Shown here: in pieces, positions 7,082-60,425 of the stretch
Numbering within the stretch: position 1 is the stretch's first letter
How the letters are laid out: each line of letters opens with the position of its first letter
Source of the DNA: an uncultured bacterium
Lineage (GTDB): Bacteria > Patescibacteriota > Minisyncoccia > Phycocordibacterales > PALSA-1337
DNA: 64,000 nt
Assembly (NCBI GenBank): GCA_963701025.1
Contig: OY969557.1
Coordinates: 234,405-298,404 of the forward strand
Direction of reading: 5' to 3'
The notes under the pieces: model-generated
What the model was told of the DNA's origin: nothing
Database searches by the model: none
The model's input: only the letters and a program-made list of their open reading frames with translations
Position numbers and translations under genes: made by a program

Positions 7082-8145
7082 GGTAAATTCTAACCTGAAA
7101 CGCAACACCCCCGTGGTACTGTAGCGGTATACCATTACCAGCTAAATTACACACGAGGATGTCGCACAAACAATTTAACAGAGATACTAGAGTAGAGCTA
7201 GCGATACTTTTAAGTGCAAGAAAGAGCCAGACTGAATGCGCCAGGATACTTGGCATGCAGAGAAGCAATGTCTGTCTTGAAATCAGTCGAAACAAAGATC
7301 CTGATGGTATATATCGAGGTGGTCATGCGCACAAAAGATATCTGGCAAGAAGAAGACGTGTAAAAATACTAGAGAGAAAGATCGAAAACGACAGGAAACT
7401 ACGGCGTCACATCGTCCGCAAATTGAAGCGATTATGGTCACCCGAACAAATTGCAGGAAGACTGAAAATGATGACCGGAAGAACGATTGTATGTCACGAA
7501 ACGATCTACACTTTTGTGTACGAGAAAAGACCGGACCTTGTAAAGTATCTGCGGCATCAGAAGTGCAAGTACCGGAAGAAAAGAGGTTCAAAAGCCCGTA
7601 TGGAGCTTGCTAGAGCCATGAAAGTGAGAAGGATCGAGGAAAGACCAAAGGAAGTGGACGAACGCTCACGCCTCGGAGATTGGGAAGATGATACTGTCAT
7701 CGGCAAGGAAAGAGTTCAAAGGATCTGGAGCTGTGTTGAAAGAAAGAGCGGATACGCCATGGCCGAGAAACTTGAGGTGGTGAGCGCAGAGATCATCAAC
7801 AAAAAAGCAGTGTCTCGATTCGTAGCGTTGCCAAAATATTTACGAAGGACTCTAACCAGAGACAACGGAACTGAGGTCAGCGGATATGACAGTTTACTTG
7901 AAGAGAAAACCGGACTCGATGTATATCATGCGACCGCGTACCATTCGTGGGAGCGAGGGACAAATGAAAACTGGAATGGATTGCTCAGGCAATTCTTTCC
8001 TAAAGGCACTTACTTTGCTACCATTACCCCATACCAAGTTCAACGTGCAGTACGAATGTTGAATGACCGGCCGAGAAAGCGGCTGGGCTACAGAACACCA
8101 AGGGAGGTATTCAGAGGGTGTATTGATTCAGATTAGAACTTGAGG
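7082..8145 (+). mobile_element. IS30-family insertion sequence, copy A (1064 bp) with imperfect terminal inverted repeats of about 28 bp
   Basis: Identical over 1064 bp to 44928-45991 on the opposite strand; identity stops exactly at these coordinates. The left end GGTAAATTCTAACCTGAAACGCAACACC and the reverse complement of the right end CCTCAAGTTCTAATCTGAATCAATACACC form an imperfect IR. Confidence 0.85.
7159..8136 (+). CDS. IS30-family DDE transposase
   Basis: 325-aa ORF with an N-terminal HTH (ELAILLSARKSQTECARILGMQRSNV) and a C-terminal integrase-core DDE domain typical of IS30 transposases. Confidence 0.85.
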   Translation: MSHKQFNRDTRVELAILLSARKSQTECARILGMQRSNVCLEISRNKDPDGIYRGGHAHKRYLARRRRVKILERKIENDRKLRRHIVRKLKRLWSPEQIAGRLKMMTGRTIVCHETIYTFVYEKRPDLVKYLRHQKCKYRKKRGSKARMELARAMKVRRIEERPKEVDERSRLGDWEDDTVIGKERVQRIWSCVERKSGYAMAEKLEVVSAEIINKKAVSRFVALPKYLRRTLTRDNGTEVSGYDSLLEEKTGLDVYHATAYHSWERGTNENWNGLLRQFFPKGTYFATITPYQVQRAVRMLNDRPRKRLGYRTPREVFRGCIDSD

Positions 8146-43728: not shown

Positions 43729-44733
43729 ATGTTGACTTTTCCTTTGATGTATCGTAGTATCGAAAACACGACCATGGCGATAGAAAACAGGCCAACAATA
43801 TCCCATAAGCTTATGCTTCTAGCCGGAGCCTGCGGTATGCTGGCCGTGGCTATTTTCAGCATCGCTCCGGCGGCTTATGCTTCATATAATTCTTCATATA
43901 ACTACGGCAATTCTAATTACGGCAATTCCCACAACGATTCTTATAATCACAACAATAACAACTGGAACAGCGGCTCTTACCGGATGAACGACAATAACCA
44001 TGACAGGGACGATCATTATCCTGTACAGACGTATCACTACCAACCACAGACGCCGATATATAACTACTATTACCCTCAAACTCCGGTATACAACTATTCG
44101 TACCCCACTTATTATCAATATCCCCAGAGCTATCCGGTGAGCTACCCGACGACGTACTATGAGCCGGCACCGCAGACATATTACCAACCGACGTATTACC
44201 AGTCCGCGCCGACATACTACCAATCAGCGCCGACGTATGCCTACCAGACGCCTTCGTACACTTCGTATCCGTACGTGAATCAGAGCAATGCGAGCGGTCT
44301 CACTATCAGCTGTTCCGCGGAACCTTCCACAGCCATCATAAATCAGCCGGTCACCTGGACCGCCGAGGTCAGCGGTGGTTCCGCGCCGTATACGTATTCG
44401 TGGTCTGGATCGGGAGGACTATCCGGATCACAAAGCTCCGTCACGGAATATTACGATACCGTAGGGCAAGAAAGCGCCGTAGTCATAGTGACCTCCGCCA
44501 ACGGCCTCTCCGGCACGCACGCATGCGACAATACGCTCACCGTGGAAGGCTCCGGCGCGAACTATATCCCACAAAGCGCTCCCGCCTCCCCGCAGGCGCC
44601 CGTAGAGAATAATCCAAACGCCGCAGCAGCCGGTCTTAGCGCCGTTTCTTTCGGAGTGATCGCCGTTCTCATCATCCTCATCCTCATTGGAGCCATCATA
44701 TATCTCATGTCCCAGCGTAGAAAGGTGGTGTAG
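43729..44733 (+). CDS. Surface-anchored Tyr/Gln/Pro/Asn-rich low-complexity protein with PKD/Ig-like domain and C-terminal TM anchor
   Basis: The start is probably M16 (MAIENRPT...), followed by a signal/TM region. Repeats of the types PTYYQSA and YPQTP are present. A PKD-like block TISCSAEPSTAIINQPVTWTAEVSGGSAPYTYSWSGSGG follows. The C-terminus is AVLIILILIGAIIYLMSQRRKVV. Confidence 0.6.
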   Translation: MLTFPLMYRSIENTTMAIENRPTISHKLMLLAGACGMLAVAIFSIAPAAYASYNSSYNYGNSNYGNSHNDSYNHNNNNWNSGSYRMNDNNHDRDDHYPVQTYHYQPQTPIYNYYYPQTPVYNYSYPTYYQYPQSYPVSYPTTYYEPAPQTYYQPTYYQSAPTYYQSAPTYAYQTPSYTSYPYVNQSNASGLTISCSAEPSTAIINQPVTWTAEVSGGSAPYTYSWSGSGGLSGSQSSVTEYYDTVGQESAVVIVTSANGLSGTHACDNTLTVEGSGANYIPQSAPASPQAPVENNPNAAAAGLSAVSFGVIAVLIILILIGAIIYLMSQRRKVV

Positions 44734-44927
44734 AAGATTGTTTTGTGACCCACATTATACAGGATTGGAAACAGATCGTAGAAAATATCAGATTGTGGCA
44801 TGTACTAAAATAATGGCACAAAAAGAAAAGGGCTCCTTAGGCACTGACACCTTTCGGATCCTTTTTCGTGTGGATACATCATCATTATTGCATATCCGGA
44901 CAGAATGTAGAGAGCTTTATGCACAGG

Positions 44928-45991
44928 CCTCAAGTTCTAATCTGAATCAATACACCCTCTGAATACCTCCCTTGGTGTTCTGTAGCCCAGCCGCTTTCTC
45001 GGCCGGTCATTCAACATTCGTACTGCACGTTGAACTTGGTATGGGGTAATGGTAGCAAAGTAAGTGCCTTTAGGAAAGAATTGCCTGAGCAATCCATTCC
45101 AGTTTTCATTTGTCCCTCGCTCCCACGAATGGTACGCGGTCGCATGATATACATCGAGTCCGGTTTTCTCTTCAAGTAAACTGTCATATCCGCTGACCTC
45201 AGTTCCGTTGTCTCTGGTTAGAGTCCTTCGTAAATATTTTGGCAACGCTACGAATCGAGACACTGCTTTTTTGTTGATGATCTCTGCGCTCACCACCTCA
45301 AGTTTCTCGGCCATGGCGTATCCGCTCTTTCTTTCAACACAGCTCCAGATCCTTTGAACTCTTTCCTTGCCGATGACAGTATCATCTTCCCAATCTCCGA
45401 GGCGTGAGCGTTCGTCCACTTCCTTTGGTCTTTCCTCGATCCTTCTCACTTTCATGGCTCTAGCAAGCTCCATACGGGCTTTTGAACCTCTTTTCTTCCG
45501 GTACTTGCACTTCTGATGCCGCAGATACTTTACAAGGTCCGGTCTTTTCTCGTACACAAAAGTGTAGATCGTTTCGTGACATACAATCGTTCTTCCGGTC
45601 ATCATTTTCAGTCTTCCTGCAATTTGTTCGGGTGACCATAATCGCTTCAATTTGCGGACGATGTGACGCCGTAGTTTCCTGTCGTTTTCGATCTTTCTCT
45701 CTAGTATTTTTACACGTCTTCTTCTTGCCAGATATCTTTTGTGCGCATGACCACCTCGATATATACCATCAGGATCTTTGTTTCGACTGATTTCAAGACA
45801 GACATTGCTTCTCTGCATGCCAAGTATCCTGGCGCATTCAGTCTGGCTCTTTCTTGCACTTAAAAGTATCGCTAGCTCTACTCTAGTATCTCTGTTAAAT
45901 TGTTTGTGCGACATCCTCGTGTGTAATTTAGCTGGTAATGGTATACCGCTACAGTACCACGGGGGTGTTGCGTTTCAGGTTAGAATTTACC
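44928..45991 (-). mobile_element. IS30-family insertion sequence, copy B (identical to copy A, inverted orientation)
   Basis: 1064 bp identical to 7082-8145 on the opposite strand; flanking sequence diverges immediately outside. Confidence 0.85.
44937..45914 (-). CDS. IS30-family DDE transposase (copy B)
   Basis: 325-aa protein identical to the product of 7159-8136. Confidence 0.85.
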   Translation of the reverse strand: MSHKQFNRDTRVELAILLSARKSQTECARILGMQRSNVCLEISRNKDPDGIYRGGHAHKRYLARRRRVKILERKIENDRKLRRHIVRKLKRLWSPEQIAGRLKMMTGRTIVCHETIYTFVYEKRPDLVKYLRHQKCKYRKKRGSKARMELARAMKVRRIEERPKEVDERSRLGDWEDDTVIGKERVQRIWSCVERKSGYAMAEKLEVVSAEIINKKAVSRFVALPKYLRRTLTRDNGTEVSGYDSLLEEKTGLDVYHATAYHSWERGTNENWNGLLRQFFPKGTYFATITPYQVQRAVRMLNDRPRKRLGYRTPREVFRGCIDSD

Positions 45992-46186
45992 GGCTCGACA
46001 TTGACACACTGGCCATGACCATGCATATAATAAGATATCGATATAGTGCAAGCGTGCTTATCGATTCGCATTAGCGAGTGTAGAGATGAAATATTCTCTC
46101 GCAAACAGGTAACGGTCGATCTCCGTATCAGTAATCTGGAGTTGTACCTGCAACGCTTACTTATTAGTTAAGCGTTTTTAATTTAT

Positions 46187-47326
46187 ATGACATTCAAATT
46201 TAAAGTTAGTTCGTTCAGAAATCAGTATGAGTCTCTCGATGGTAGACGTCTATGTGTCTTTACTGCTCTTGTTGGAAATATCCCTGCCGAGTGGGAAGAT
46301 TGGCGAGATGTTAACGTGCGAGATACCAATAAACGAGGTGATGTATTCAATGCGATTATCGATACTCTTAGAAATGAACCTGAGGAAATGATCTTCCGTA
46401 ATCTAGGAATTACAATCCTGGCACCGGAAGTGGAGTTCGATAATAAAACAAATGAAGTTACTGTCGTTTTCTCCGATAAGACAAAACACGGTATTGCGAA
46501 CGGTGGACACACTTTCTCCGCTATTCGCGAAGTACTTCGCACAGACAGCGATGTTAACGCAGAGATAAAAGTAGAGTGCATCGTGGGTAACCTTGATACT
46601 GATAATCGTGTCTCAATCGTTGATGGACGTAATAGATCACGCGCAGCTCAAACACATTCTCTTGAAAATCTCCGTGAGTCTTACAAGCCCATCGAGAAAG
46701 TTCTCACGAGTCCCTATTACAAAGATAGAATCGCTTATTCGGAGTTCGAAATTAGCGAGAACGGTAAACGTAAAGACATATCGATTCGAGAAATACTCTC
46801 TTACATCTACTGTTTAGACGCATTCGAAAAAAATGTGCACCCGATCCAAGCATATTCATCAAAAGGAGCTGTTGTCGACTTCTATGCGAGTAAAGATGAA
46901 AAAGGAAGAGAACGAAATGAGATACTTGCTCGTGCAAGTAAGATCTTGCCAGATATTCTTCAACTTCGTGATGTAATCTACCGCGATCTTCCCCAAGCTT
47001 ATAATGATGCAGGTGGTAAATTCGGAGGACTCGAGACAATGGGTGTTTCCAAGTACGCTGACCCACATCCCCTTCGATTCTTGGATGATGTAACGGAATT
47101 CAATTATCCAGATGGGTTTATCTATCCGATTCTGGCAGCATTCCGAAAGCACATTGATCACAGAGGTGAGTGGTCTTGGAAAGAGAACCAGAACCCTTTT
47201 GAGCTTTGGGAAAAGAGAAAACTTGATGTTGCGGCGGCTATGAAAGATGCTACTAAAGATGCTGCAAATGCAAACAAAATGGGTAAGGCAGGAATTACAT
47301 GGCGTGTGTGTTACGACGCTCTCTAA
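46187..47326 (+). CDS. Defence-island protein, possibly AIPR/DGQHR(DndB)-like (uncertain family)
   Basis: 379 aa. The HGIANGGHTFSAI block resembles the xNGxQT / DGQHR-type motif of the AIPR/DndB-like families. The gene sits between an IS and a restriction-modification module in a low-GC island. The family assignment comes from recollection of motifs only. Confidence 0.3.
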   Translation: MTFKFKVSSFRNQYESLDGRRLCVFTALVGNIPAEWEDWRDVNVRDTNKRGDVFNAIIDTLRNEPEEMIFRNLGITILAPEVEFDNKTNEVTVVFSDKTKHGIANGGHTFSAIREVLRTDSDVNAEIKVECIVGNLDTDNRVSIVDGRNRSRAAQTHSLENLRESYKPIEKVLTSPYYKDRIAYSEFEISENGKRKDISIREILSYIYCLDAFEKNVHPIQAYSSKGAVVDFYASKDEKGRERNEILARASKILPDILQLRDVIYRDLPQAYNDAGGKFGGLETMGVSKYADPHPLRFLDDVTEFNYPDGFIYPILAAFRKHIDHRGEWSWKENQNPFELWEKRKLDVAAAMKDATKDAANANKMGKAGITWRVCYDAL

Positions 47327-47337
47327 ACACTATCCAT

Positions 47338-47371
47338 CAAGAAGCCCCTTCGGGGGCTTCTTGATTTGTAT
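47338..47371. terminator. Bidirectional rho-independent terminator (CAAGAAGCCCC-TTCG-GGGGCTTCTTG + ATTTGTAT)
   Basis: Perfect 11-bp stem with a tetraloop, between two convergent genes. Confidence 0.75.
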
Positions 47372-47373
47372 AA

Positions 47374-47823
47374 TCATCTTCCTTTCTGCATCTTCTCCAA
47401 GTCTTTCGGCATATATCTGATCACATTTCCTTTGCTGTCTACTGAAAATATATGCAGTAGTAACTTCTTCGCAATCTGATACGGAATTCGTCGAATCGCC
47501 TTGTCAGCTGCTCCTTTGGGTAATCCAAGACCATAATAATATCTGGTTGAACCGGACGTATTCATCCTCGTGATAATTTGCCCGAGTGAATATACGAAAG
47601 CAACTTCCTCACTTGAACTATCCTTAGCACCTTTAGCTTCAATCAAATAATAACGACTGTATTTATTGTGACATGCTTTGATATCAACACCGCGACCGCT
47701 TAATGTTGCAATCTTTATGATCTTCCAGTCATGTTTAGACAACCATGTGATTATGGAATTCTGAACAAAATCTTCGGCAATGGCACGGTCGTTAGTAGCC
47801 ATAAAATTATGAAGCCGTCTCAA
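47374..47823 (-). CDS. Small PD-(D/E)xK-like protein, last gene of the R-M operon (function unknown)
   Basis: 149 aa. The sequence GRGVDIKA...YYLIEAKG fits the D...(D/E)xK nuclease core. It overlaps the upstream MutH-like gene by 17 nt. Confidence 0.35.
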   Translation of the reverse strand: MRRLHNFMATNDRAIAEDFVQNSIITWLSKHDWKIIKIATLSGRGVDIKACHNKYSRYYLIEAKGAKDSSSEEVAFVYSLGQIITRMNTSGSTRYYYGLGLPKGAADKAIRRIPYQIAKKLLLHIFSVDSKGNVIRYMPKDLEKMQKGR

Positions 47824-48427
47824 AAATCTTTTTTACCAACCCTGTCCTGGCATAAAAAGCTCTGCTCGTAGATCCGTGGCCAGCTCCTTTTGTTCTAGCC
47901 TGTATCCATTTACCATCTGCACCAGTCAACGCCTCAAATCCTTCTTTGATAAGTTTATTGCGAATAAAATCATAATCTGCCTTGATCTCCAATATCAATT
48001 CATCATCTTCCGTGGAATCAAAACTGACTACTTTCAACAGCTTGCCGTCTTCCGAATTCTGACCATTCCATAAAACTGCGCAAAATACGATTGTCTTTAG
48101 TTTGCTCCAACAATGGCTTTCAAAAAATGAATGCTGTTTAAGCTCCTCCGGATTGATCATTGTAATCGCCATTGTTTCCTTCGGCACAAGCTCCTCTTTT
48201 ACATAGTGAAAAGCAACAGATTTCAATTCGTAAGTTAGACCATTTGGAGCCTTTGAAACATTAGTCTGTAAGCCGGCTAACCGTTCAAGGACCAAACCCT
48301 TCCAACCCTTATTCTGCTTGCCAGTTTCATAGGTCGTAATACCGTGCTTTAACGCAAGTTCTCGCAAATCCTTACCAACATATTTCTTTAGGTTTTTTAT
48401 CGCTGTGGCGCGAGTTATGATTTTCAT
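47807..48427 (-). CDS. MutH/Sau3AI-family (GATC-type) restriction endonuclease
   Basis: 206 aa. The N-terminal GKDLRELALKHGITTYETGKQNKGWKGLVLERLAGL and the ELKS...E.K core resemble MutH/DpnII/MboI-type enzymes. Translationally coupled to the methyltransferase (4-nt overlap). Confidence 0.5.
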   Translation of the reverse strand: MKIITRATAIKNLKKYVGKDLRELALKHGITTYETGKQNKGWKGLVLERLAGLQTNVSKAPNGLTYELKSVAFHYVKEELVPKETMAITMINPEELKQHSFFESHCWSKLKTIVFCAVLWNGQNSEDGKLLKVVSFDSTEDDELILEIKADYDFIRNKLIKEGFEALTGADGKWIQARTKGAGHGSTSRAFYARTGLVKKIFETAS

Positions 48428-49257
48428 ATTAGTGCTTTATTCATATCGAGAAAACGCTTCTTTGATAATTCAAGATAATTTTTTTCTAAATCGACACCTA
48501 CAAATTTTCTCCCATTCGATACCGCCGCTATGCCAGTTGTAGAGCTACCGGCAAATGGATCTAGAACAATATCACCCTTGTTTGTACTTGCAAGGACAAT
48601 TCTTTTCAATAATTCAAGCGGTTTCTGCGTAGGGTGTTTTCCAAACTTTTTCTCATCCGGCTTCGGTGTCCCCACGGCCCATACAGATCGCATCTGCATA
48701 TTTGGCTTCTTTATAAAATCACCATTCCATTCGCCACCCTTCATTAAATCATAATTGAAAGTATGTTTCGCTTTTTTATCTTTCCTAGCCCAAATAAGAG
48801 TCTCATGACTTGCGGTAAAGAAACGACATGAAAGATTCGGGGAAGCATTTGGCTTAAACCAAGTGACATCATTCAAAATATGATATCCGAGAGACTGAAT
48901 GGCATGACCACATTGGTAAATTGAATGATACGTGCCGGATACCCAAAGAGTTCCGCCAGGCTTCAACACTCGTCTGCATGCCTCTAACCATTTATGATGG
49001 AAATCATAATCGGCATCAAAACCGTTACTTTTATCCCAGTTACCCTTATTGACGCTTACCATTTTGCCAGCATGAACAGTAAATCCGCCGTTTGATAGAT
49101 TGTAAGGCGGATCAGCAAAAATCATGTCGATCGAATCTTCTCGCAATTGATTCATTAGCTGTATAGAATCACCGAGATACAGCACAAAATTATCCTTCTT
49201 GAAGTAAGGCTGCATTTCGATTGTTGCAAGGATTTTAGGTGTAGCTATTAGTGGCAT
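48424..49257 (-). CDS. Beta-class DNA methyltransferase (N6-adenine or N4-cytosine; DPPY motif)
   Basis: Motif IV (IFADPPYNLSNGG) precedes motif I (DPFAGSSTTGIAAV), the beta-class order. 277 aa. Confidence 0.8.
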   Translation of the reverse strand: MPLIATPKILATIEMQPYFKKDNFVLYLGDSIQLMNQLREDSIDMIFADPPYNLSNGGFTVHAGKMVSVNKGNWDKSNGFDADYDFHHKWLEACRRVLKPGGTLWVSGTYHSIYQCGHAIQSLGYHILNDVTWFKPNASPNLSCRFFTASHETLIWARKDKKAKHTFNYDLMKGGEWNGDFIKKPNMQMRSVWAVGTPKPDEKKFGKHPTQKPLELLKRIVLASTNKGDIVLDPFAGSSTTGIAAVSNGRKFVGVDLEKNYLELSKKRFLDMNKALI

Positions 49258-49571
49258 GAGGGTACTTTACCATTTTTTTATCAATTTTTGAACTACCGGT
49301 CTCGGTCGCGACAAGCGGTTCATGGTCGCGGCAGAGGAAGCGCGTGGATGTCCGCTTCTCATCACGGACTCAATTCGCGCCTAGCTCATGTTGGCATGGC
49401 GAGAGCGGCCAACGGTCTGTGCGTTACAGACTGTTGGGTAAGCGGAGCCATGCGAACAGGAGCGTAAGGCGCGCCACAATACCCTATTTGGAAGCGGACA
49501 TGCTCGCGCTTCCATCACTCCGTCGTAGCCACAAAACATTATCCGCGACCGTGTACGGCTTGGCGCGCCAC

Positions 49572-49763
49572 TTACTTCTTTGTTTCCTTATCGTCTTTCT
49601 TTTTCCATTCTTCAATCCTAGCAAATGCCAGATAAAGATCCGCAAAACTATGGAGATATTCATTGGCGGTATCTTCCGATATATCTACACTGTGCTCTTC
49701 CTTAAAGCACCGAACTGTTCTTTCTATCAGTTCCTGACTGAAACGAAATGGTTTATAGTCCAT
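49572..49763 (-). CDS. Hypothetical 63-aa protein
   Basis: Small ORF in the island, preceded on its strand by TGTGGATAA, a DnaA-box-like sequence. Coding status uncertain. Confidence 0.2.
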   Translation of the reverse strand: MDYKPFRFSQELIERTVRCFKEEHSVDISEDTANEYLHSFADLYLAFARIEEWKKKDDKETKK

Positions 49764-50310
49764 AAATGTTAAAAACGGTTATCCACACTTTTTGATAATA
49801 TGGCTTGACCTTATGAGCCATGGGTATAAAATTACACCATAAAAGCCCATTGGGCAGTCCATACATAGTATGGATCAGGCGCTGGACGCCACTCTCCAAG
49901 TAGAGAGAAAAGAAACTTAAGAGGCATAATAAGTGACCTCACCTCTGCGTATTTCGATATACGCTCTCTGTTCTCATAAGTGACACAATCATGCCGGCCG
50001 TCTCAGCGGATGCTTTAGCGCCGCGGGACGGCGGGAGGGTTGACTTGATTATAGGCACACTTAAAGAGAACTCATTATAAGCCTAATTCTCTACTTGGTT
50101 GGTAACAAAGCTTACCCACTCCAAGCTCATCATCTCCGGCTCCACCATCGAGTCATACGAGTATAAAGAAAAATCACTCGCATACGGGTTCTCAAACTCC
50201 AAAGGCAAGAAGTCGAAAGAAAATAGTCGTCGTCAATGAAGAAACTCGTCTAAAGAAGATCGAATCCAGGAAGCGTTCCATGCAACGCTCCAATTCCAGA
50301 CTACGCAGGC

Positions 50311-50925
50311 TTGGTAAATGCCAATGCCTGGAAATGGATCAAAGAAACCGGTGAACCGTATCCACCAGTATTTGCCACCTTTACCTTCAAAGAAAGCGTC
50401 AAGGATATCAAGGTAGCCAATCGGATCTTCTCTCACTTCGTCAAACGTCTTAATTATGAGCTAGGCCATACAAAGAAATCGTTCCTGAAATACATCACGG
50501 TCATTGAATTTCAGGACTTTAGCCGTGACGGTGTCGTTCACTATCACAGCATCTTCTTTAACCTTGAGTATATACGCAAGGATATTCTGGCTGACATCTG
50601 GGGCCAGGGTTTCGTTCATATCAGAGCTATTGACCAGGTAAGCAACGCCGGGGCCTATATCTCCAAGTATCTGGTCAAACACTTCGAGGATGACCGCCTT
50701 GATGGACAGAAGCGGTACTTCTCGAGTCGTGGCCTACTGAAGCCCATTGAAATACTGGATCAATTCAAAGCTGACAGCATATCGTCTCTGATTCCTGCTC
50801 CATATCTGGCCAAGCAGAAGGAATTCACGAGCAAATATCAGGGCAAGGTCGAATACAAGCAATATCTCCTCGAGAGGACGCAGTCGATTAACGATGTCGT
50901 TCCAGATCTCGACCTACTCCTATGA
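50311..50925 (+). CDS. HUH-superfamily rolling-circle replication initiator (two-tyrosine YxxKY type, phiX174 gpA-like); TTG start, possibly frameshifted N-terminal extension
   Basis: Motif 1 FATFTF, motif 2 HUH (VVHYHSIFF), and motif 3 AYISKYLVK (YxxKY). An upstream ORF fragment in another frame (50096-50238, ...KLTHSKLIISGSTIESYEYKEK...) could be a displaced N-terminus. Confidence 0.65.
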   Translation: MVNANAWKWIKETGEPYPPVFATFTFKESVKDIKVANRIFSHFVKRLNYELGHTKKSFLKYITVIEFQDFSRDGVVHYHSIFFNLEYIRKDILADIWGQGFVHIRAIDQVSNAGAYISKYLVKHFEDDRLDGQKRYFSSRGLLKPIEILDQFKADSISSLIPAPYLAKQKEFTSKYQGKVEYKQYLLERTQSINDVVPDLDLLL

Positions 50926-51104
50926 TTGATATTGCCGCATTGAAAAAGATCGACCCGGAATTGGCCAAAGTTTCCGACACGGAAGCGCTTGAAATCCGTG
51001 ACTTACTTTACCGCATGGCTGATTTAGCTCTCAAGAATTATTATGAGGACGAAAATGTTTCCAAATATCCCATTGGGGATAGCGCCACTTGCAAACAGTT
51101 GTAG
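50922..51104 (+). CDS. Hypothetical 60-aa protein overlapping the rep stop (ATGA)
   Basis: Translationally coupled small ORF within the element. Confidence 0.35.
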   Translation: MIDIAALKKIDPELAKVSDTEALEIRDLLYRMADLALKNYYEDENVSKYPIGDSATCKQL

Positions 51105-51116
51105 TAAAATACATAC

Positions 51117-52640
51117 ATGAACGAAAATCTTTTCAAAAATGGAATAATCTACTGTCGCGTTTCTTCAACCGAACAAGTTGACGGTACCTCTCTTGAATCA
51201 CAGGAAAAGGTCTGCCGTGAGTTCTGCGTGCGCGAACACATCCAAGTCTTGAAAGTATTCGTGGAAAAAGGAGAATCCGCCAAGACGGCTGAACGCACTG
51301 AATTTATCAATGCCATTAGCTTCTGCTCTGACAAAAAGAATGCCGTCGATTATTTCGTCGTCTACAAGCTAGATCGCTTCGCCCGAAATCAGGCCGATCA
51401 CATTACCGTCAGACAAACTTTGAAGAAATACCATACTGAATTGAAATCAGTCACTGAACCAATTAGCGACAGTCCGGTTGGAAAAATGATGGAGGGCATA
51501 CTTTCAGCTTTTGCCGAATTCGACAATAACGTACGCACCGAAAGAAGCGTCAACGGTATGAAAGAGCGCATCAAGCAAGGAATATGGGTCTGGCAGGCTC
51601 CTATGGGCTATTGCAGAACAGAAAAAGGGGCTAACCTCACTCCACATCCAACCTACGCCCCATTTATTAAAATGATATTTGAAGAATACGCCAAAGGTAT
51701 TCATACGTTCGACTCACTCGCCAAACACGCTACAAATCGCGGCTTTACTATGAAAAATGGCAAACCGGCTATTCCGCAACTTATCGAAAAGATTATTCGC
51801 AATCCTCTCTACTGCGGAAGAATCAAAGTATGGGATATAGAAATCAAAGGCAAATTTGAACCTATAATAACCGAACGCCTATTCGATCAATGTCAAGAAA
51901 GTGGTAAGCGCAAACCAAAGACTCCACGACTGGCAAAAAACAGTGACTTTCCGTTAAGAAAGCTGGCGACATGTGAATTCTGCAATAAGCCCCTAACTGG
52001 AAGCAAGGCCACTGGCAGACAAGGACAGAAATATCCGTATTACCATCATCACAAGCAAAACTGTGAACATGCCGCCTTTGTACCAAAAGCTCACTTCGAG
52101 CAAATGTTTGTAGAGTACCTCCAAGAGATAACGCCAAGCTTCAAATTCGAGGAATCCTTCAAAGCTATAGTCCTCGATATCTGGAAAAATAACTTCAAGA
52201 AATTCGACGAGGAAAATGAGCAGATTAAAAAAGCAGTCACTGTGCTAGAACAAAAAAGACAACGCGTATTCGATCTCCACCAAGATAAAACTTACACGGA
52301 TCAGGAATTCAAAGATCAGAAAAACATCATTGACGACAAGATCAAGAAACACATGAGCTTAATGCACGAGAAATACGACAAAGAATTCAAGATGGATGCC
52401 GCCTTGGAATACTGCTTTGACTTCGTGAGAAATACCGCCAGCACATGGGTAAAGCTCGCAAAGAAGCCGGAAGATCGTCTCTGTTTCCAAAAATTAGTGA
52501 TATCCGAAAATGTCCAATTTTCAGGAAACAAATTTGGAAACGCGAAACTAACCCCAATCTACAACCTATATCAGCAATTCTTACTCGATAAATCCCAATT
52601 GGTGACCCTACGGGGAGTCGAACCCCGATTCCAGCCTTGA
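51117..52640 (+). CDS. Large serine recombinase (integrase)
   Basis: Resolvase-type catalytic domain with the Ser motif IIYCRVSSTEQ, then a recombinase domain and a Cys-containing zinc-ribbon region (CEFCNKPLTGSKATGRQGQKYPYYHHHKQNCEH). 507 aa. The 3' end overlaps tRNA-Glu on the opposite strand. Confidence 0.85.
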   Translation: MNENLFKNGIIYCRVSSTEQVDGTSLESQEKVCREFCVREHIQVLKVFVEKGESAKTAERTEFINAISFCSDKKNAVDYFVVYKLDRFARNQADHITVRQTLKKYHTELKSVTEPISDSPVGKMMEGILSAFAEFDNNVRTERSVNGMKERIKQGIWVWQAPMGYCRTEKGANLTPHPTYAPFIKMIFEEYAKGIHTFDSLAKHATNRGFTMKNGKPAIPQLIEKIIRNPLYCGRIKVWDIEIKGKFEPIITERLFDQCQESGKRKPKTPRLAKNSDFPLRKLATCEFCNKPLTGSKATGRQGQKYPYYHHHKQNCEHAAFVPKAHFEQMFVEYLQEITPSFKFEESFKAIVLDIWKNNFKKFDEENEQIKKAVTVLEQKRQRVFDLHQDKTYTDQEFKDQKNIIDDKIKKHMSLMHEKYDKEFKMDAALEYCFDFVRNTASTWVKLAKKPEDRLCFQKLVISENVQFSGNKFGNAKLTPIYNLYQQFLLDKSQLVTLRGVEPRFQP

Positions 52641-52674
52641 GAAGGCCGTGTCCTGACCATTAGACGATAGGGCC
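52600..52674 (-). tRNA. tRNA-Glu (anticodon CTC), 3' CCA encoded
   Basis: GGCCCTATCGTCTAATGGTCAGGACACGGCCTTCTCAAGGCTGGAATCGGGGTTCGACTCCCCGTAGGGTCACCA. D-arm GTCTAATGGTCAGGAC is Glu-like; loop TTCTCAA. Confidence 0.7.
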
Positions 52675-52685
52675 GCTATATTTAT

Positions 52686-57640: not shown

Positions 57641-57822
57641 AAGTTAGATCTCTATAGATCGAACCTTATTTGCCACTTCTTCCCACTTGCATACCATTCT
57701 ACCCCACTTTGCTCTATTTTGTTTACCACCTTGAAAATAGCCATTTGGGGATAACTTGGGGATAGGAAAAAGGCCTAGAAAACTAGGCTTTGAATAAGAT
57801 TATCGAAATACTTTACACGTTT

Positions 57823-58585
57823 CTATCCAAACCACTCCACAATCTTCAGTCGATATTTCTCCATACAGCTCACTCCCAAACCGAATAGCAAGGAGAGTAG
57901 TATTAAAAAGAATCCGCCGGCAAAAACTACGGGAATGTTATACAACGACCCTGCGGTAATCATGAAGTGACCAAGCCCGACATCCGAGGAGATGAATTCT
58001 CCGATAAATGCACCGAGAATGGCGAAACCAATGTTTAGTTTCATTGAAGACAGTACCCAATCAAGCGAAGCTGGGAATATGACCTTCTGAAGTATTTGGA
58101 AACGCGAAGCGCCGTATATCTTCAATAATTTATACTGCTCTCCGTCAATGCTTTTCGCACCCTCATATGCCTGGGTGAGAGCTATGAGAAATACACCGAA
58201 GGCCGCTAGGGCTATTTTCATCGATATTCCTATACCGAACCAGATGATGATGAGAGGGGCGAAAGCAAAGACCGGGATAGCACCGAGAATGACGATGTAG
58301 GGCTTGAAGATCTGCGCTATCCGTGCCGAATACCAAAGCAGGAATCCGATGAGTGTTCCGAGAATGATGCCGATGACAAAACCGATCAAAGTTTCAATGC
58401 CAGTAATCCACATGCTGTAGGGTAACACTCCATTTACCGTATTCGCCACAATGGCTTGCCAAACAGTCGACGGAGAAGCAAAGAGGAATGTGATGTGCGG
58501 AGAGACGGCAATAAGCTGCCAAACAATGAGTAATCCGATGAAGATACAGAGGGATATGATCCAATTTATATATTTTGTCTTCATG
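57823..58585 (-). CDS. ABC transporter permease (NitT/TauT family)
   Basis: Six TM helices and an EAA-like loop. The start is probably MKTKYINW at 58585, 4 nt after the ATPase stop. Confidence 0.8.
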
Positions 58586-58588
58586 ATA

Positions 58589-59328
58589 TTAGGATTCCTT
58601 GCCCAGAAGCTTCCATATCGTGTCGAAGTGGCTTTGAAACCTGTCCGTTTTCCGGATATTGACTGGATCACGATATTCTTCTTCAATCTTGATATCTGCC
58701 TGATACGATATCGTGGCCGGTTTTCCGCTCATGAGCATCACCTTGTCACCCATGGCGATGGCTTCTTCGATATTATGTGTGAAAATATGCCGATCTTACC
58801 GCTATTCTTAATCTTAAATCGATCTGTTTCCAACCGTAGGCGGCTGTCGAAATCAATGGCTGAAAACGGCTCATCGAAAAGGATGATGTCAGGGTCCTGT
58901 ATCATGGCCCGGACCAAAGAGACTTTTTGTTTCATACCGCCGGAAATCTCGTGAGGAAAGGCTTTTTCGAAACCATCAAGTCCAATCTCCTTTACGAGCT
59001 TACCTGCTTTAGAGATATCTTCGTTTCCTACTTTTTTCTTAATCTCTATCGGAAGCAAGATATTTCGCATCAATGTCCTCCATGGCAAAAGCAGATCCTT
59101 CTGCGGGACATAGCCGATCTTGCCGGAAACCGATACCGAGCCGGAGTCGGGCTTTTCTAGACCAGCGATGATATTGAGAAGGGTCGTCTTACCGCTGCCG
59201 CTCTTTCCTACGATAGAGACTATTTCTCCTCCATTGATGTCGAAAGATATATAAGACAAGACCGGAAGAGTCTTACCGTCTAGATTAAAGCTTTTTGAGA
59301 TACCTCTGACCTGAATGCGCGTAGACAC
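58589..59328 (-). pseudogene. ABC transporter ATP-binding protein (NitT/TauT family) with a single frameshift
   Basis: Walker A GKSGSGKTTLL, signature ISGGMKQKVSLVRAM, Walker B ILFDEPFSAID. After about aa 180 the conserved continuation (IFTHNIEEAIAMGDKVMLMSGKPATISYQADI...) is in another frame. The switch is near 58781-58796. Confidence 0.75.
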
Positions 59329-59333
59329 AACAT

Positions 59334-60332
59334 TTATTGGATAGATGCCGCCTTTTGAGCAAAGGAATTATCTATGTATGTAGCATAATCTGGCAATACC
59401 TTCAAATCTCCTAAATCTACACGGAGCTGGGTCGCTGCCTGCCATGCAGCCTGACTCGTCTCCGTATTCACTGGAAAGATATTCAGATTGATCATGTTCT
59501 GCACGGCCGCTTCGGCGACACCTCGGTCTACATTGAATTGCGTAGCGAGCGTATCCGCGGCATCTTTCGGATTGCTTCTCAAGTAAGTATCAGCTTCTTG
59601 GAGGGCGTTGACGACTTTTTGAACTACTTCGGGGTTATTTTTTACATAATCAGGCAGCGCCGTAAGACCCGTCACGGCAAAATCGGGATATTGAGTATCC
59701 AACGAGTAGACAACGTGATAGCCCTGCTTTACGGCCTGGGAGACATTCGGCTCGAATTCAAGGGCAATATCCACTTGCTTGGCATCTAGAGCAGCGAGGA
59801 AACCGCCGAACTGGATTTCCTTTATATTGGGAGTCAGTCCGACTGACTGGAACATTTTCTTTTGTAGAACATAGTCGGTGGATGGAGCCGGTAGCGTGCC
59901 AACCGTATATCCTTTGAGCATCGAAGCGTTCGTTATCTGCGGAATGCTCGCGCTCTTTGCCAATCCCCAGAATGGAACGCCGTTCAAGACTGCTGCGACA
60001 TCGACACCCGGTTCGCCCTTCTCTCCCGATATGGCGATAAAGGTCGGATCGCCAATCGCAAACTGAGCATCGCCACTCAGGACGGAAGCGAATGCCTTTT
60101 CATCGCCGCCAGCAGTCGTGATAGTCACATCAAGACCTTGTTGCTTGAAAAATCCCTTATCTTGGGCAATCCACAGAGGAGAATGCAGAAAGACTGCGAA
60201 TGCTTCCGAGATAGTCACCTTCTGAAGCGATTGGGAAGCGGATTGAGAGCTGTTGTTGTGCGTGGAGAAAGCATAAATGACGATGATAATTATCACTAAA
60301 AGGACAACGGCCCAAATGGTTTTTTTATTCAT
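59334..60332 (-). CDS. ABC transporter substrate-binding protein (NMT1/SsuA/TauA-like)
   Basis: Signal/TM N-terminus, periplasmic binding fold, operon with the ATPase and permease. Confidence 0.75.
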   Translation of the reverse strand: MNKKTIWAVVLLVIIIIVIYAFSTHNNSSQSASQSLQKVTISEAFAVFLHSPLWIAQDKGFFKQQGLDVTITTAGGDEKAFASVLSGDAQFAIGDPTFIAISGEKGEPGVDVAAVLNGVPFWGLAKSASIPQITNASMLKGYTVGTLPAPSTDYVLQKKMFQSVGLTPNIKEIQFGGFLAALDAKQVDIALEFEPNVSQAVKQGYHVVYSLDTQYPDFAVTGLTALPDYVKNNPEVVQKVVNALQEADTYLRSNPKDAADTLATQFNVDRGVAEAAVQNMINLNIFPVNTETSQAAWQAATQLRVDLGDLKVLPDYATYIDNSFAQKAASIQ

Positions 60333-60425
60333 TGAGTTGGTTTACTCTGATAACTGTCTTTGACACTATATAACACATCGACTACGATTTCAATTACCTT
60401 CAATTATCTGAAGAGATTATAACTG

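What the first reader, a model, noticed from the sequence alone, without database searches (positions are those of the whole stretch)
46000..52680. Low-GC mobile/defence island between IS30 and tRNA-Glu
About 6.7 kb of markedly lower GC contains, in order:
- An AIPR/DGQHR-like defence-associated protein.
- A convergent three-gene R-M operon: beta-class DPPY methyltransferase, MutH/Sau3AI-like GATC-type endonuclease, and a small PD-(D/E)xK-like protein.
- A GC-rich structured non-coding segment.
- A HUH rolling-circle Rep (YxxKY) with a coupled small ORF.
- A large serine recombinase.
The recombinase 3' end overlaps the 3' half of tRNA-Glu(CTC) on the opposite strand. Of seven tRNAs in the window, only tRNA-Glu encodes CCA, consistent with an element-derived 3' end. 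Integrative mobile elements usually use tyrosine integrases at tRNA genes. A serine recombinase combined with a phiX-type Rep is an unusual combination.
Basis: partly seen in the sequence, partly recalled or inferred. Interest (0 to 1): 0.7.

Follow-up and report, generated by a model that had tools for sequence, protein, structure and literature searches.

The report
Serine-recombinase island in tRNA-Glu gene
This is a 7.9-kb mobile element, carrying a restriction-modification system and an abortive-infection-type gene, that a large serine recombinase inserted into the last bases of a tRNA-Glu gene; it belongs to a large, apparently undescribed family in Patescibacteria (candidate phyla radiation) bacteria, and serine recombinases have rarely been reported to target tRNA genes.

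Summary
Every listed gene is present, GC is 0.39-0.47 against 0.55-0.60 in the flanks, the recombinase ORF overlaps tRNA-Glu(CTC) by 41 nt, and only this tRNA of seven encodes CCA.

The interpretation needs three corrections.
- **Boundary:** the element runs from 44745 to 52608 (7,857 bp). The IS30 copy lies inside it, not beside it.
- **Att sites:** attL and attR share only a 7-bp core, GTGACCC (tRNA positions 68-74). The tRNA body is therefore host DNA, and the element supplies only C75-A76 and the trailer.
- **Rep:** this copy carries two +1 frameshifts.

An independent 7,836-bp metagenome contig spans window 44752-52604, within a few bases of the two att cores.

The recombinase belongs to a family found almost entirely in Patescibacteria genome bins.
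- In 55 of 80 related loci it ends inside an antisense tRNA, mostly Glu.
- A GGAAC-like box lies 15 nt from the core in 27 of 27 element arms. The tRNA T-loop box lies 10 nt from the core in 47 of 56 tRNA arms. This is the 5-bp attP/attB offset described for large serine integrases.

Cargo differs between relatives. [quoted passage not shown]

The parts
44720..44790 (+). attL. The B arm is the native tRNA trailer (44720-44744), the 7-bp core GTGACCC is at 44745-44751, and the P' arm starts at 44752, with GGAAAC at 44767-44772, 15 nt after the core.
   Evidence: The P' arm matches the sequence that follows the recombinase gene in L003, and attL of L004. Contig L089 starts at 44752. The box sits at +15 in 27/27 P' arms.
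44928..45991 (-). IS30-family insertion sequence (1,064 bp; transposase ORF 44937-45914), inserted inside the element 177 bp from attL.
   Evidence: NF033563, E=3e-70. It is 100% identical to a second copy at 7082-8145.
46187..47326 (+). AIPR-family (abortive-infection-type) cargo gene.
   Evidence: PF10592 3.4e-30. PADLOC AbiU 9e-8. PHROG Abi-alpha-like 3.9e-7.
47374..47823 (-). 149-aa protein, last gene of the R-M operon, function unknown. It has a D...ExK-like motif by eye only.
   Evidence: No match in Pfam, NCBIfam, PADLOC or PHROGs, and nothing meaningful in PDB sequences. One homologue, in L033.
47807..48427 (-). MutH/Sau3AI-like type II restriction endonuclease.
   Evidence: PF02976 8.5e-10. 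NF040973 7.6e-16, below its cut-off. PADLOC REase_II 5.7e-13.
48424..49257 (-). Beta-class N6/N4 DNA methyltransferase (CcrM-like).
   Evidence: PF01555 4e-59. PADLOC MTase_II 2.9e-98. A 79%-identical homologue sits in the L009 element.
49304..49569 (+). GC-rich long imperfect hairpin, about 260 nt. Candidate single-strand origin of the rolling-circle replicon (inferred, not shown).
   Evidence: z = -9.4 (RNA) and -10.0 (DNA). Conserved in L006 and L089, with 5 compensatory pairs and a variable tip. No Rfam match.
49572..49763 (-). 63-aa ORF transcribed divergently from Rep, function unknown.
   Evidence: Homologues at the same position in 8 related loci. No family match.
49779..49832 (+). DnaA-box-like TTATCCACA (49779-49787) and a promoter-like site, TTGACC-16-TAAAAT (49805-49832).
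   Evidence: Promoter scan 10/12. Both are conserved in position in L002, L003, L006, L008 and L012.
49833..50098 (+). Conserved structured leader and candidate double-strand origin. An invariant block at 50037-50075 contains CTTGAT (50044-50049).
   Evidence: Conserved hairpins and an invariant block across 6 relatives. The resemblance to the phiX174/pC194 nick site is from memory and untested.
50099..50925 (+). Rolling-circle Rep (HUH, YxxKY), a pseudogene here. It is spread over three frames by two +1 insertions, near 50206 and 50311.
   Evidence: PF23343 2.5e-18. tblastn with the intact 274-aa Rep of L003 gives three frames. The insertions are absent from L002, L003, L006, L080 and L089.
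50922..51104 (+). 60-aa ORF whose start overlaps the Rep stop and which lies just upstream of the recombinase gene. Candidate accessory or directionality factor (inferred).
   Evidence: Found directly upstream of the recombinase in at least 46/80 loci. No family match.
51117..52640 (+). Large serine recombinase, 507 aa, intact. The last 13 codons are antisense to tRNA-Glu, and the stop codon TGA is the complement of tRNA nt 35-37.
   Evidence: PF00239, PF07508 and a weak PF13408 hit. PHROG integrase 2e-83. Aligns to the A118 integrase C-terminal domain structure. The family alignment shows a conserved tRNA-encoded tail. Stop-codon position.
52575..52640 (+). attR. The P arm (52575-52601) lies within the recombinase coding sequence, the core GTGACCC is at 52602-52608, and the B' arm is the tRNA acceptor and T arm, with CGAAC at 52619-52623, 10 nt after the core.
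   Evidence: Contig L089 ends at 52604.
52600..52674 (-). tRNA-Glu(CTC), intact. Its C75-A76 and its trailer are element-derived.
   Evidence: ARAGORN and Rfam, 59.1 bits. CCA check. An empty site in L091 reads GGGTCA-CAAAAC.

Best explanation
Window 44745-52608 is one 7,857-bp integrative element. Its large serine recombinase (LSR) recombined an element site (attP), which overlaps the 3' end of its own gene, with a host site (attB) made of the last bases of tRNA-Glu(CTC) and its trailer.

**Crossover.** The exchange falls within the 7-bp core GTGACCC, which is tRNA positions 68-74, most likely in ACCC. The tRNA stays intact and now carries an encoded CCA. In the integrated state the recombinase ORF reads on through the antisense of the tRNA to a stop codon in the anticodon loop.

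**Site recognition (inferred).** The recombinase's zinc-ribbon domain reads the T-loop box (TCGAAC) 10 nt from the core in attB, and a GGAAC-like box 15 nt from the core in attP. This is the 5-bp offset that distinguishes attB from attP in characterised large serine integrases.

**Backbone and cargo.** The backbone is a long hairpin, a 63-aa ORF, a promoter and origin leader, a phiX/pC194-type Rep, a 60-aa ORF and the LSR. After excision, the backbone in intact relatives would replicate as a rolling circle. The cargo is an AIPR gene plus a three-gene type II R-M operon, and relatives carry different cargo at the same position.

**State of this copy.** It is decaying. Rep has two frameshifts and a host IS30 has landed inside. 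The LSR and both att sites look intact, so excision may still be possible but autonomous replication probably is not.

**Shown:** gene identities, the att sequences, the boundaries and the family-wide patterns. **Inferred:** the exact crossover dinucleotide, zinc-ribbon recognition of the T-loop box, the origin functions, the role of the 60-aa protein, and present-day mobility.
For: **Boundaries**
- attL at 44745-44790 has the same core as attR. Its P' arm (ACATTATACAGGATTGGAAAC) matches the sequence after the 97%-identical recombinase gene in L003 and attL in L004.
- The independent ENA contig L089 (7,836 bp) aligns to window 44752-52604, ending at the two cores.
- GC drops at the same points.
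- An unoccupied tRNA-Glu(CTC) in L091 reads ...TTGTTTTGTGACCCTACGGGG..., the predicted attB, with no CCA encoded.

**Family**
- 55/80 loci from the genome collection have a minus-strand tRNA overlapping the recombinase 3' end: mostly Glu, plus Lys, Ala and Arg.
- 49/55 of those tRNAs encode CCA, against 16/50 other tRNAs in the same loci.
- The stop codon is the complement of tRNA nt 35-37 in 48/56 sites counted (the 55 loci plus the window), and the median overlap is 41 nt.
- 22 of 32 upstream copies of the 7-bp core are followed by [CG]GAA[ACT] at exactly +15. About 0.2 would be expected by chance (my estimate from the motif's degeneracy).
- With the window, L004 and three attP-type junctions this makes 27/27 P' arms at +15. 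The T-loop box is at +10 in 47/56 B' arms.
- A 5-bp shift of the zinc-ribbon motif between attP and attB is the published model (PMC3783163).

**Modules**
- Rep is upstream of the LSR in at least 31/80 loci and the 60-aa ORF in at least 46/80.
- L006 has the same backbone with a Dcm-type methylase, a putative endonuclease and Vsr as cargo. L004 carries a ClpP-like protease and a GmrSD_C protein.
- L010 has two tandem elements at one tRNA-Glu.
Against: - No excised circle or attP junction for this exact element was seen. The attP pattern gave only chance hits in the viral collection, and no read data were available.
- The L089 ends are compatible with an assembly-graph break rather than a circle. 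They omit ACCC, and the contig has no terminal overlap.
- L089 is a mosaic: 100% identical over 44752-48150 but only 80-90% over Rep and the LSR. It could be partly chimeric.
- The empty site L091 comes from a different organism, and its flanks do not match the window.
- The two P-type arms are not a clean inverted repeat, so the crossover dinucleotide is not fixed.
- The zinc-ribbon Pfam hit is below its curated cut-off (21.1 vs 25.3 bits).
- The Rep frameshifts rest on one assembly. It is 100% identical to Illumina-based contigs elsewhere, but that region itself was not checked.
Confidence: 0.8

Rival explanations
1. The element brings its own copy of the tRNA 3' half, as tyrosine-integrase islands do. 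The crossover would then lie near the anticodon or variable loop, and a displaced host 3' half should sit at the other end.
For: The recombinase ORF covers the whole 3' half of the tRNA. The tRNA-derived tail LVTLRGxEP is conserved across the family. Only this tRNA has CCA.
Against: - No second copy of the 3' half exists, even with 3 mismatches allowed.
- attL shares only GTGACCC with attR.
- In L003, L009 and L010 the recombinase gene diverges from the tRNA sequence immediately after GTGACCC.
- L089 ends at the core.
- Conservation of the tail is explained by conservation of tRNA-Glu itself.
Confidence: 0.04
2. The low-GC stretch is a hotspot where several unrelated insertions piled up: an IS30, a defence cassette, and a small Rep-recombinase element of about 2.9 kb (49827-52608). 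It would not be a single mobile unit.
For: - DNA homology with L002, L008, L012 and L080 starts at 49827.
- Cargo differs between relatives.
- Tandem elements occur at this tRNA in L010.
- L089 is mosaic.
- The IS30 is certainly a later, independent insertion.
Against: - No att-like core with a +15 box occurs between 44790 and 52600.
- The only P' arm is at 44752.
- L089 carries the whole 7.8 kb between the same ends.
- L006 has the hairpin, 63-aa ORF, Rep, 60-aa ORF and LSR contiguous with another R-M cassette at the same position. Cargo therefore looks like a swappable module inside one element.
Confidence: 0.1
3. It is the remnant of a temperate single-stranded-DNA phage (a microvirus- or inovirus-like prophage) that has lost its structural genes.
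For: Rep matches PF23343, the ORF2/G2P family of ssDNA phages, and phage replication-initiator PHROGs. Inoviruses have been reported in the candidate phyla radiation, and phiRSM inoviruses use a serine recombinase at a tRNA-Ser gene (PMC6813254, PMC4471427).
Against: - No capsid, morphogenesis or zot-like gene was found here, nor among the genes examined in L003, L004 and L006. Elements with a mapped attL measure 3.4-11 kb.
- No close relative of the recombinase occurs in 2.9 million viral contigs.
- Rep also shows faint similarity to plasmid RepSA.
Confidence: 0.06

Closest known systems
Actinomycete integrative and conjugative elements (AICEs) of the serine-recombinase subgroup, such as the Mycobacterium elements predicted in tRNA-Leu (Ghinet et al. 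2011, PMC3218068)
   Same: A small integrative element with a large serine recombinase, its own replication initiator (pSAM2-type RepSA is a rolling-circle protein) and a tRNA gene as target. Rep here shows a faint RepSA match (PF20199, E=4.5e-4 for the L003 Rep).
   Different: - There is no FtsK/Tra transfer gene, and the host phylum is different.
- Rep belongs to the phiX/G2P-type family (PF23343).
- The recombinase ORF overlaps attP and runs into the antisense tRNA.
- The cargo is defence genes.
- The Mycobacterium cases were predictions without att dissection.
phiRSM1/phiRSM3 filamentous phages of Ralstonia (Askora et al. 2011, as cited in PMC4471427)
   Same: A rolling-circle replicon that integrates through a serine recombinase into the 3' end of a tRNA gene (Ser), with a short core of 13 bp.
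   Different: phiRSM uses a small resolvase/invertase-type enzyme without the recombinase and zinc-ribbon domains. It is a complete virus with structural genes. Its attP lies between genes rather than inside the recombinase ORF.
Characterised large serine integrases (A118/LI, Bxb1, phiC31, SPbeta SprA)
   Same: The domain layout matches, and the sequence aligns to the A118 C-terminal domain structure. Shared site features are short core identity, attP next to the int gene, and a motif displaced by 5 bp between attP and attB (PMC3783163).
   Different: Those enzymes target protein-coding genes or intergenic sites, often disrupting them. This family targets tRNA genes without disrupting them and adds an encoded CCA. 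Mageeney et al. [quoted passage not shown]
Integration-dependent gene remodelling: SSV-type integrases split by integration, and mycobacteriophage integration-dependent immunity (from memory, not checked here)
   Same: attP lies inside a coding sequence, so integration changes the C-terminus of the encoded protein.
   Different: Here the affected protein is the serine recombinase itself and only its last 8-17 residues change. No functional consequence has been shown.

Membership tests
Large serine recombinase (serine integrase) | N-terminal resolvase catalytic domain with the serine nucleophile | tested here: met
   PF00239, E=1.2e-31. The motif YCRVSSTEQ is invariant in the family alignment.
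Large serine recombinase (serine integrase) | Recombinase domain followed by a zinc-ribbon domain with a coiled-coil insert | tested here: met
   PF07508, E=2.9e-12. The PF13408 hit is weak (21.1 bits against a cut-off of 25.3). Residues 226-416 align to the A118 integrase C-terminal domain structure 4kis (E=2.3e-11). Cys286, Cys289 and Cys316 are invariant.
Large serine recombinase (serine integrase) | Att sites with a very short identical core, and a distal motif 5 bp further from the centre in attP than in attB | tested here: met
   The core is 7 bp. The box is at +15 in 27/27 P' arms and at +10 in 47/56 B' arms (model from PMC3783163).
Large serine recombinase (serine integrase) | Catalyses attP x attB recombination, with excision dependent on a directionality factor | not testable with these tools
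   No biochemistry and no reads. The 60-aa ORF is only a candidate factor.
HUH rolling-circle Rep (phiX174 / pC194 superfamily) | HUH metal-binding motif and a catalytic Tyr motif (YxxxY/YxxK) | tested here: met
   PF23343, E=2.5e-18. VHYHSIFF and AYISKYLVK are visible in the translation. PHROG rolling-circle initiator, 1.1e-16.
HUH rolling-circle Rep (phiX174 / pC194 superfamily) | Intact reading frame | tested here: not met
   There are two +1 insertions relative to L002, L003, L006, L080 and L089. The 274-aa homologue maps to three frames.
HUH rolling-circle Rep (phiX174 / pC194 superfamily) | Cognate double-strand origin with a nick site | tested here: inconclusive
   An invariant 39-nt block containing CTTGAT lies just upstream of Rep and is flanked by conserved hairpins. 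Nicking was not tested.
Type II restriction-modification system | DNA methyltransferase with SAM-binding and DPPY catalytic motifs | tested here: met
   PF01555 4e-59. PADLOC MTase_II 2.9e-98. The FADPPYN motif is present.
Type II restriction-modification system | Adjacent cognate endonuclease with matching specificity | tested here: inconclusive
   A MutH/Sau3AI-like domain is present (PF02976 8.5e-10), but at 206 aa it is far below the Sau3AI and MutH equivalog cut-offs. Specificity is unknown. The methylase is CcrM-like, so GANTC versus GATC is unresolved.
AIPR abortive-infection proteins | AIPR domain above the Pfam gathering score | tested here: met
   PF10592, 106 bits against a cut-off of 25. 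Defence activity was not tested, and the DGQHR domain was not tested.
Actinomycete ICE (AICE) | Integrase, replication initiator and an FtsK-like Tra protein for double-stranded DNA transfer | tested here: not met
   No Tra/FtsK-like gene is found among the element's ORFs.
Tyrosine-integrase tRNA island | Phage_integrase-family gene and a direct repeat of the tRNA 3' segment | tested here: not met
   There is no tyrosine recombinase among the ORFs and no repeat of the tRNA 3' segment.
IS30 family insertion sequence | IS30 DDE transposase in a discrete multicopy unit of about 1 kb | tested here: met
   NF033563, 237 bits against a cut-off of 80. Two 100%-identical 1,064-bp copies are present. 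Terminal inverted repeats were not resolved.

The most novel reading that the evidence does not exclude
A clade of large serine recombinases spread across the Patescibacteria has specialised on tRNA genes by using the near-universal T-loop box as its distal recognition motif. Its attP would be in effect a mimic of a tRNA 3' end with a 5-bp insertion.

Because attP lies inside the recombinase ORF, integration rewrites the enzyme's C-terminal tail. The tail is encoded by the tRNA antisense strand when integrated (LVTLRGVEPRFQP) and by the P' arm when free (for example LVTHYTGFPNW in L003). The novel reading is that this tail swap, possibly together with the co-transcribed 60-aa protein, helps set the direction of recombination.
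Probability: 0.15. Interest if true: 0.8.

Novelty: new variant of a known kind. Interest (0 to 1): 0.6.

Why it matters
- **Target choice.** tRNA genes are the classic targets of tyrosine integrases. For large serine recombinases this use is called rare or unproven (PMC3218068, PMC7192596). This family gives dozens of independent, sequence-resolved attL/attR pairs and a clear recognition logic: core at tRNA positions 68-74, T-loop box at +10, mimic box at +15. That makes the question directly testable.
- **Poorly known mobilome.** It describes a common type of small mobile element in Patescibacteria, whose mobile elements are little studied. These elements move restriction-modification and abortive-infection genes between lineages.
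- **Effect on the tRNA gene.** The element changes the gene it occupies by adding an encoded CCA and a new trailer.
- **Possible application.** Enzymes of this kind could interest genome engineers, because part of their target is a conserved tRNA feature.

Tried and rejected
- **Direct repeat of the tRNA 3' half:** searched with up to 3 mismatches and by repeat finding. None was found.
- **First guesses at the attL motif** (GACC...CCGAAC, TTTCCGAAC): only chance-level hits in the window. The window's P' arm has GGAAAC instead.
- **Rfam on the GC-rich hairpin and on the whole window:** only the tRNAs matched.
- **Exact look-ups:** the recombinase, the left-flank protein and the 60-aa ORF are not on record.
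- **Logan contig L001,** which ends inside the tRNA, was considered as evidence of population variation. I rejected this because the break is 24 nt from the core and is better explained by k-mers shared with another tRNA-Glu.
- **attP junction pattern in viral contigs:** two unrelated chance hits.
- **Recombinase family in viral contigs:** only distant resolvase-domain hits at 28-35% identity.
- **Circularity test on small contigs:** no terminal overlaps.
- **Sliding-window folding of all loci** timed out. A GC-spike scan replaced it but did not give a clear family-wide hairpin.
- **IS30 terminal inverted repeats:** not resolved.
- **PDB sequence search for the 149-aa protein:** nothing meaningful.
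- **Literature searches** for a described Patescibacteria or tRNA-Glu serine-integrase family found none.

Full report
**1. What is in the sequence**

GC falls from 0.55-0.60 to 0.39-0.47 between about 44750 and 52700.
- an AIPR-family protein (46187-47326, PF10592, E=3.4e-30);
- a convergent minus-strand operon: a beta-class N6/N4 methyltransferase (48424-49257), a 206-aa MutH/Sau3AI-like endonuclease (47807-48427), and a 149-aa protein with no family match (47374-47823);
- a GC-rich non-coding stretch;
- a Rep of family PF23343 with HUH and YxxKY motifs (50311-50925);
- an overlapping 60-aa ORF (50922-51104);
- a 507-aa large serine recombinase, or LSR (51117-52640).

tRNA-Glu(CTC) lies at 52600-52674 on the minus strand and overlaps the last 41 nt of the recombinase ORF. 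It is the only one of the window's seven tRNAs that encodes CCA.

**2. The overlap is a property of the whole recombinase family**

A protein search returned many recombinases of about 505 aa. All of the best 120 hits are at least 53% identical to the query. Their C-termini share LV(T)-xxG(I/V)EP, which is simply the antisense translation of a tRNA 3' end: TGG is the complement of CCA, and GGNATYGAACC is the complement of the T arm.

Across 80 loci fetched from species-representative genomes, nearly all of them Patescibacteria bins and the closest being Candidatus Taylorbacteria at 96-97%:
- 55 have a minus-strand tRNA overlapping the recombinase 3' end. Most are Glu(TTC/CTC), with some Lys(CTT), Ala(TGC) and Arg.
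- 49 of those 55 tRNAs encode CCA, against 16 of 50 other tRNAs in the same loci.
- Counting the window as a 56th site, the recombinase stop codon is the complement of tRNA nucleotides 35-37 in 48 of 56. The median overlap is 41 nt.

**3. Where the element ends**

There is no repeat of the tRNA 3' half. In L003, L009 and L010 the recombinase gene is not followed by a tRNA. The sequence matches the window up to TTGGTGACCC and then diverges into a different arm.

L010 explains why. A second recombinase gene (563 aa), 9.4 kb downstream, ends in tRNA-Glu, so these junctions are P-core-P' joints between tandem elements.

The arm after the core in L003 (ATTATACTGGATT...) recurs in the window at 44752, directly after a second GTGACCC at 44745-44751. 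That site is 12 nt past the stop codon of the upstream host gene. The same arm also occurs at attL of L004.

The element is therefore 44745/44752 to 52601/52608, or 7,857 bp. attL and attR share only the 7-bp core, which corresponds to tRNA positions 68-74. It follows that:
- the tRNA body is host DNA;
- the native 3' end is GGGTCA-CAAAAC;
- the element contributes C75-A76 and the new trailer.

Three independent observations agree with this.
- An ENA metagenome contig of 7,836 bp (L089) aligns to window 44752-52604, so it stops at both cores.
- A JGI contig (L091) carries an unoccupied tRNA-Glu(CTC) that reads TTGTTTTGTGACCCTACGGGG. This is the predicted attB, with no encoded CCA. It comes from another organism, so it supports the architecture rather than this exact site.
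- The GC transition falls at the same place.

**4. Att-site architecture across the family**

For loci with an att tRNA I listed every upstream copy of the locus's own 7-bp core. Of 32 such copies, 22 are followed by [CG]GAA[ACT] at exactly +15. About 0.2 would be expected by chance (my estimate from the motif's degeneracy).

With the window, L004 and the three attP-type joints, 27 of 27 P' arms have the box at +15. In the tRNA-side arms the T-loop box [CT]GAA[CT] is at +10 in 47 of 56.

The first 8-9 bases after the core are also alike in many arms: AAGTGGGA in P' against TACGGGGA in B'. The P' arm therefore looks like a tRNA 3' end with five extra bases.

This is the relation Rutherford et al. 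described for serine integrases. In their model the zinc-ribbon motif in attB is shifted 5 bp towards the centre relative to attP (PMC3783163).

Half-site spacing places the centre of symmetry in ACCC. The exact dinucleotide remains undetermined.

Elements with a mapped attL measure about 3.4-11 kb.

**5. Backbone, cargo and state of this copy**

*Backbone.* Rep lies directly upstream of the recombinase in at least 31 of 80 loci, and the 60-aa ORF in at least 46 of 80. DNA homology with L002, L008, L012 and L080 begins at 49827. With L006 it begins at 49306.

*Region upstream of Rep.* This region contains:
- a conserved promoter-like site, TTGACC-16-TAAAAT, at 49805-49832;
- a DnaA-box-like TTATCCACA;
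- several conserved hairpins;
- an invariant block, GGTTGACTTGATTATAGGCACACTTAAAGAGAAC, at 50037-50075.

The CTTGAT in that block recalls the phiX174/pC194 nick site. That comparison is from my memory and was not tested.

*GC-rich segment.* It is a hairpin of about 260 nt (z = -9.4 as RNA, -10.0 as DNA). Its stems are conserved, five of its base pairs show compensatory changes, and its tip is variable in L006. I propose it is the single-strand origin of the rolling-circle replicon, with low confidence.

*Cargo.* The cargo is modular. L006 has the same backbone but carries a Dcm-type methylase, a 350-aa putative endonuclease and Vsr. L004 carries a ClpP-like protease and a GmrSD_C protein and has no Rep. 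L009 has a 79%-identical copy of the window's methylase.

*Decay in this copy.*
- Rep is spread over three frames by two +1 insertions that are absent from five relatives.
- A 1,064-bp IS30 sits at 44928-45991 and is 100% identical to a copy at 7082-8145.
- The recombinase and both att sites appear intact.

*L089.* It is identical to the window over 44752-48150 but 10-20% divergent over Rep and the LSR. This means either module exchange between elements or a partly chimeric assembly.

**6. Comparison with what is known**

Reviews state that serine-recombinase elements integrate within protein genes and disrupt them, while tRNA 3' ends are the territory of tyrosine integrases (PMC5704250).

Mageeney et al. 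2020 found 14 of 297 predicted serine-integrase islands in t(m)RNA genes. [quoted passage not shown]

Ghinet et al. 2011 had predicted eight Mycobacterium AICEs with serine recombinases in tRNA-Leu. They cited phiRSM1, which has a small serine recombinase and targets tRNA-Ser, as the only known case (PMC3218068, PMC4471427).

None of my searches found a description of a Patescibacteria or tRNA-Glu family. No close relative is present in the viral contig collection.

The element works like a serine-recombinase AICE or an integrative rolling-circle plasmid, but it lacks a transfer gene and so is not an AICE. Three features are new as far as the searches found:
- a recombinase ORF running through attP into the antisense tRNA;
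- donation of an encoded CCA to the tRNA gene;
- a T-loop-mimicking attP.

**7. Verdict**

It is a new variant of a known kind, of moderate to high interest because the family is large, coherent and directly testable.

Noticed in passing
window 7082-8145: A second, 100%-identical copy of the 1,064-bp IS30-family element, in the opposite orientation to the copy inside the island. The IS has therefore been active recently in this genome.
   Followed up: partly
window 57800-60350: Another lower-GC stretch (0.43-0.47). It encodes an ABC transporter operon: a permease, an ATPase that looks short at 196 aa, and a substrate-binding protein. It may have been acquired horizontally.
   Followed up: no
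window 49779-49787, and the same position in L002, L003, L006, L008 and L012: A perfect DnaA-box consensus, TTATCCACA, lies just upstream of the -35 of the conserved Rep promoter. It is duplicated in L012 and L003. It could bind host DnaA or a regulator encoded by the element.
   Followed up: partly
L016 1917, 2406, 3162: Three attL-like sites (GTGACCC followed by AAGTGGGGGAGARTTGGAACC) spaced 500-750 bp apart upstream of one element. Each follows a T-rich stretch. They look like scars of successive integrations, or an array of very small elements.
   Followed up: no
L010 9995-21011 and L003 3247-13253: Tandem elements at one tRNA-Glu. In L010 a 512-aa recombinase is followed by a 9.4-kb element that has its own 563-aa recombinase. 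In L003 the recombinase is followed by at least 10 kb that includes a Prim-Pol protein. How a second serine-recombinase element enters an already occupied site is not explained.
   Followed up: partly
L089 against window 44752-52604: The left 3.4 kb (P' arm, IS30, AIPR gene, start of the R-M operon) is 100% identical to the window. The Rep, 60-aa ORF and recombinase part is 10-20% divergent. This is either recombination between related elements or a chimeric assembly.
   Followed up: partly
window 43729-44733: The host gene abutting attL encodes a 334-aa protein that is N-, Y-, Q- and P-rich, with a C-terminal membrane anchor and no family match. Its stop codon is only 12 nt from the native end of the tRNA.
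   Followed up: no
L002, L004, L005, L013, L022, L030, L044, L080: tRNA-Glu sits next to the Mur ligase gene in many Patescibacteria lineages. These loci, all retrieved through the recombinase, carry elements with differing content beside it, so this locus is a recurrent integration hotspot.
   Followed up: partly
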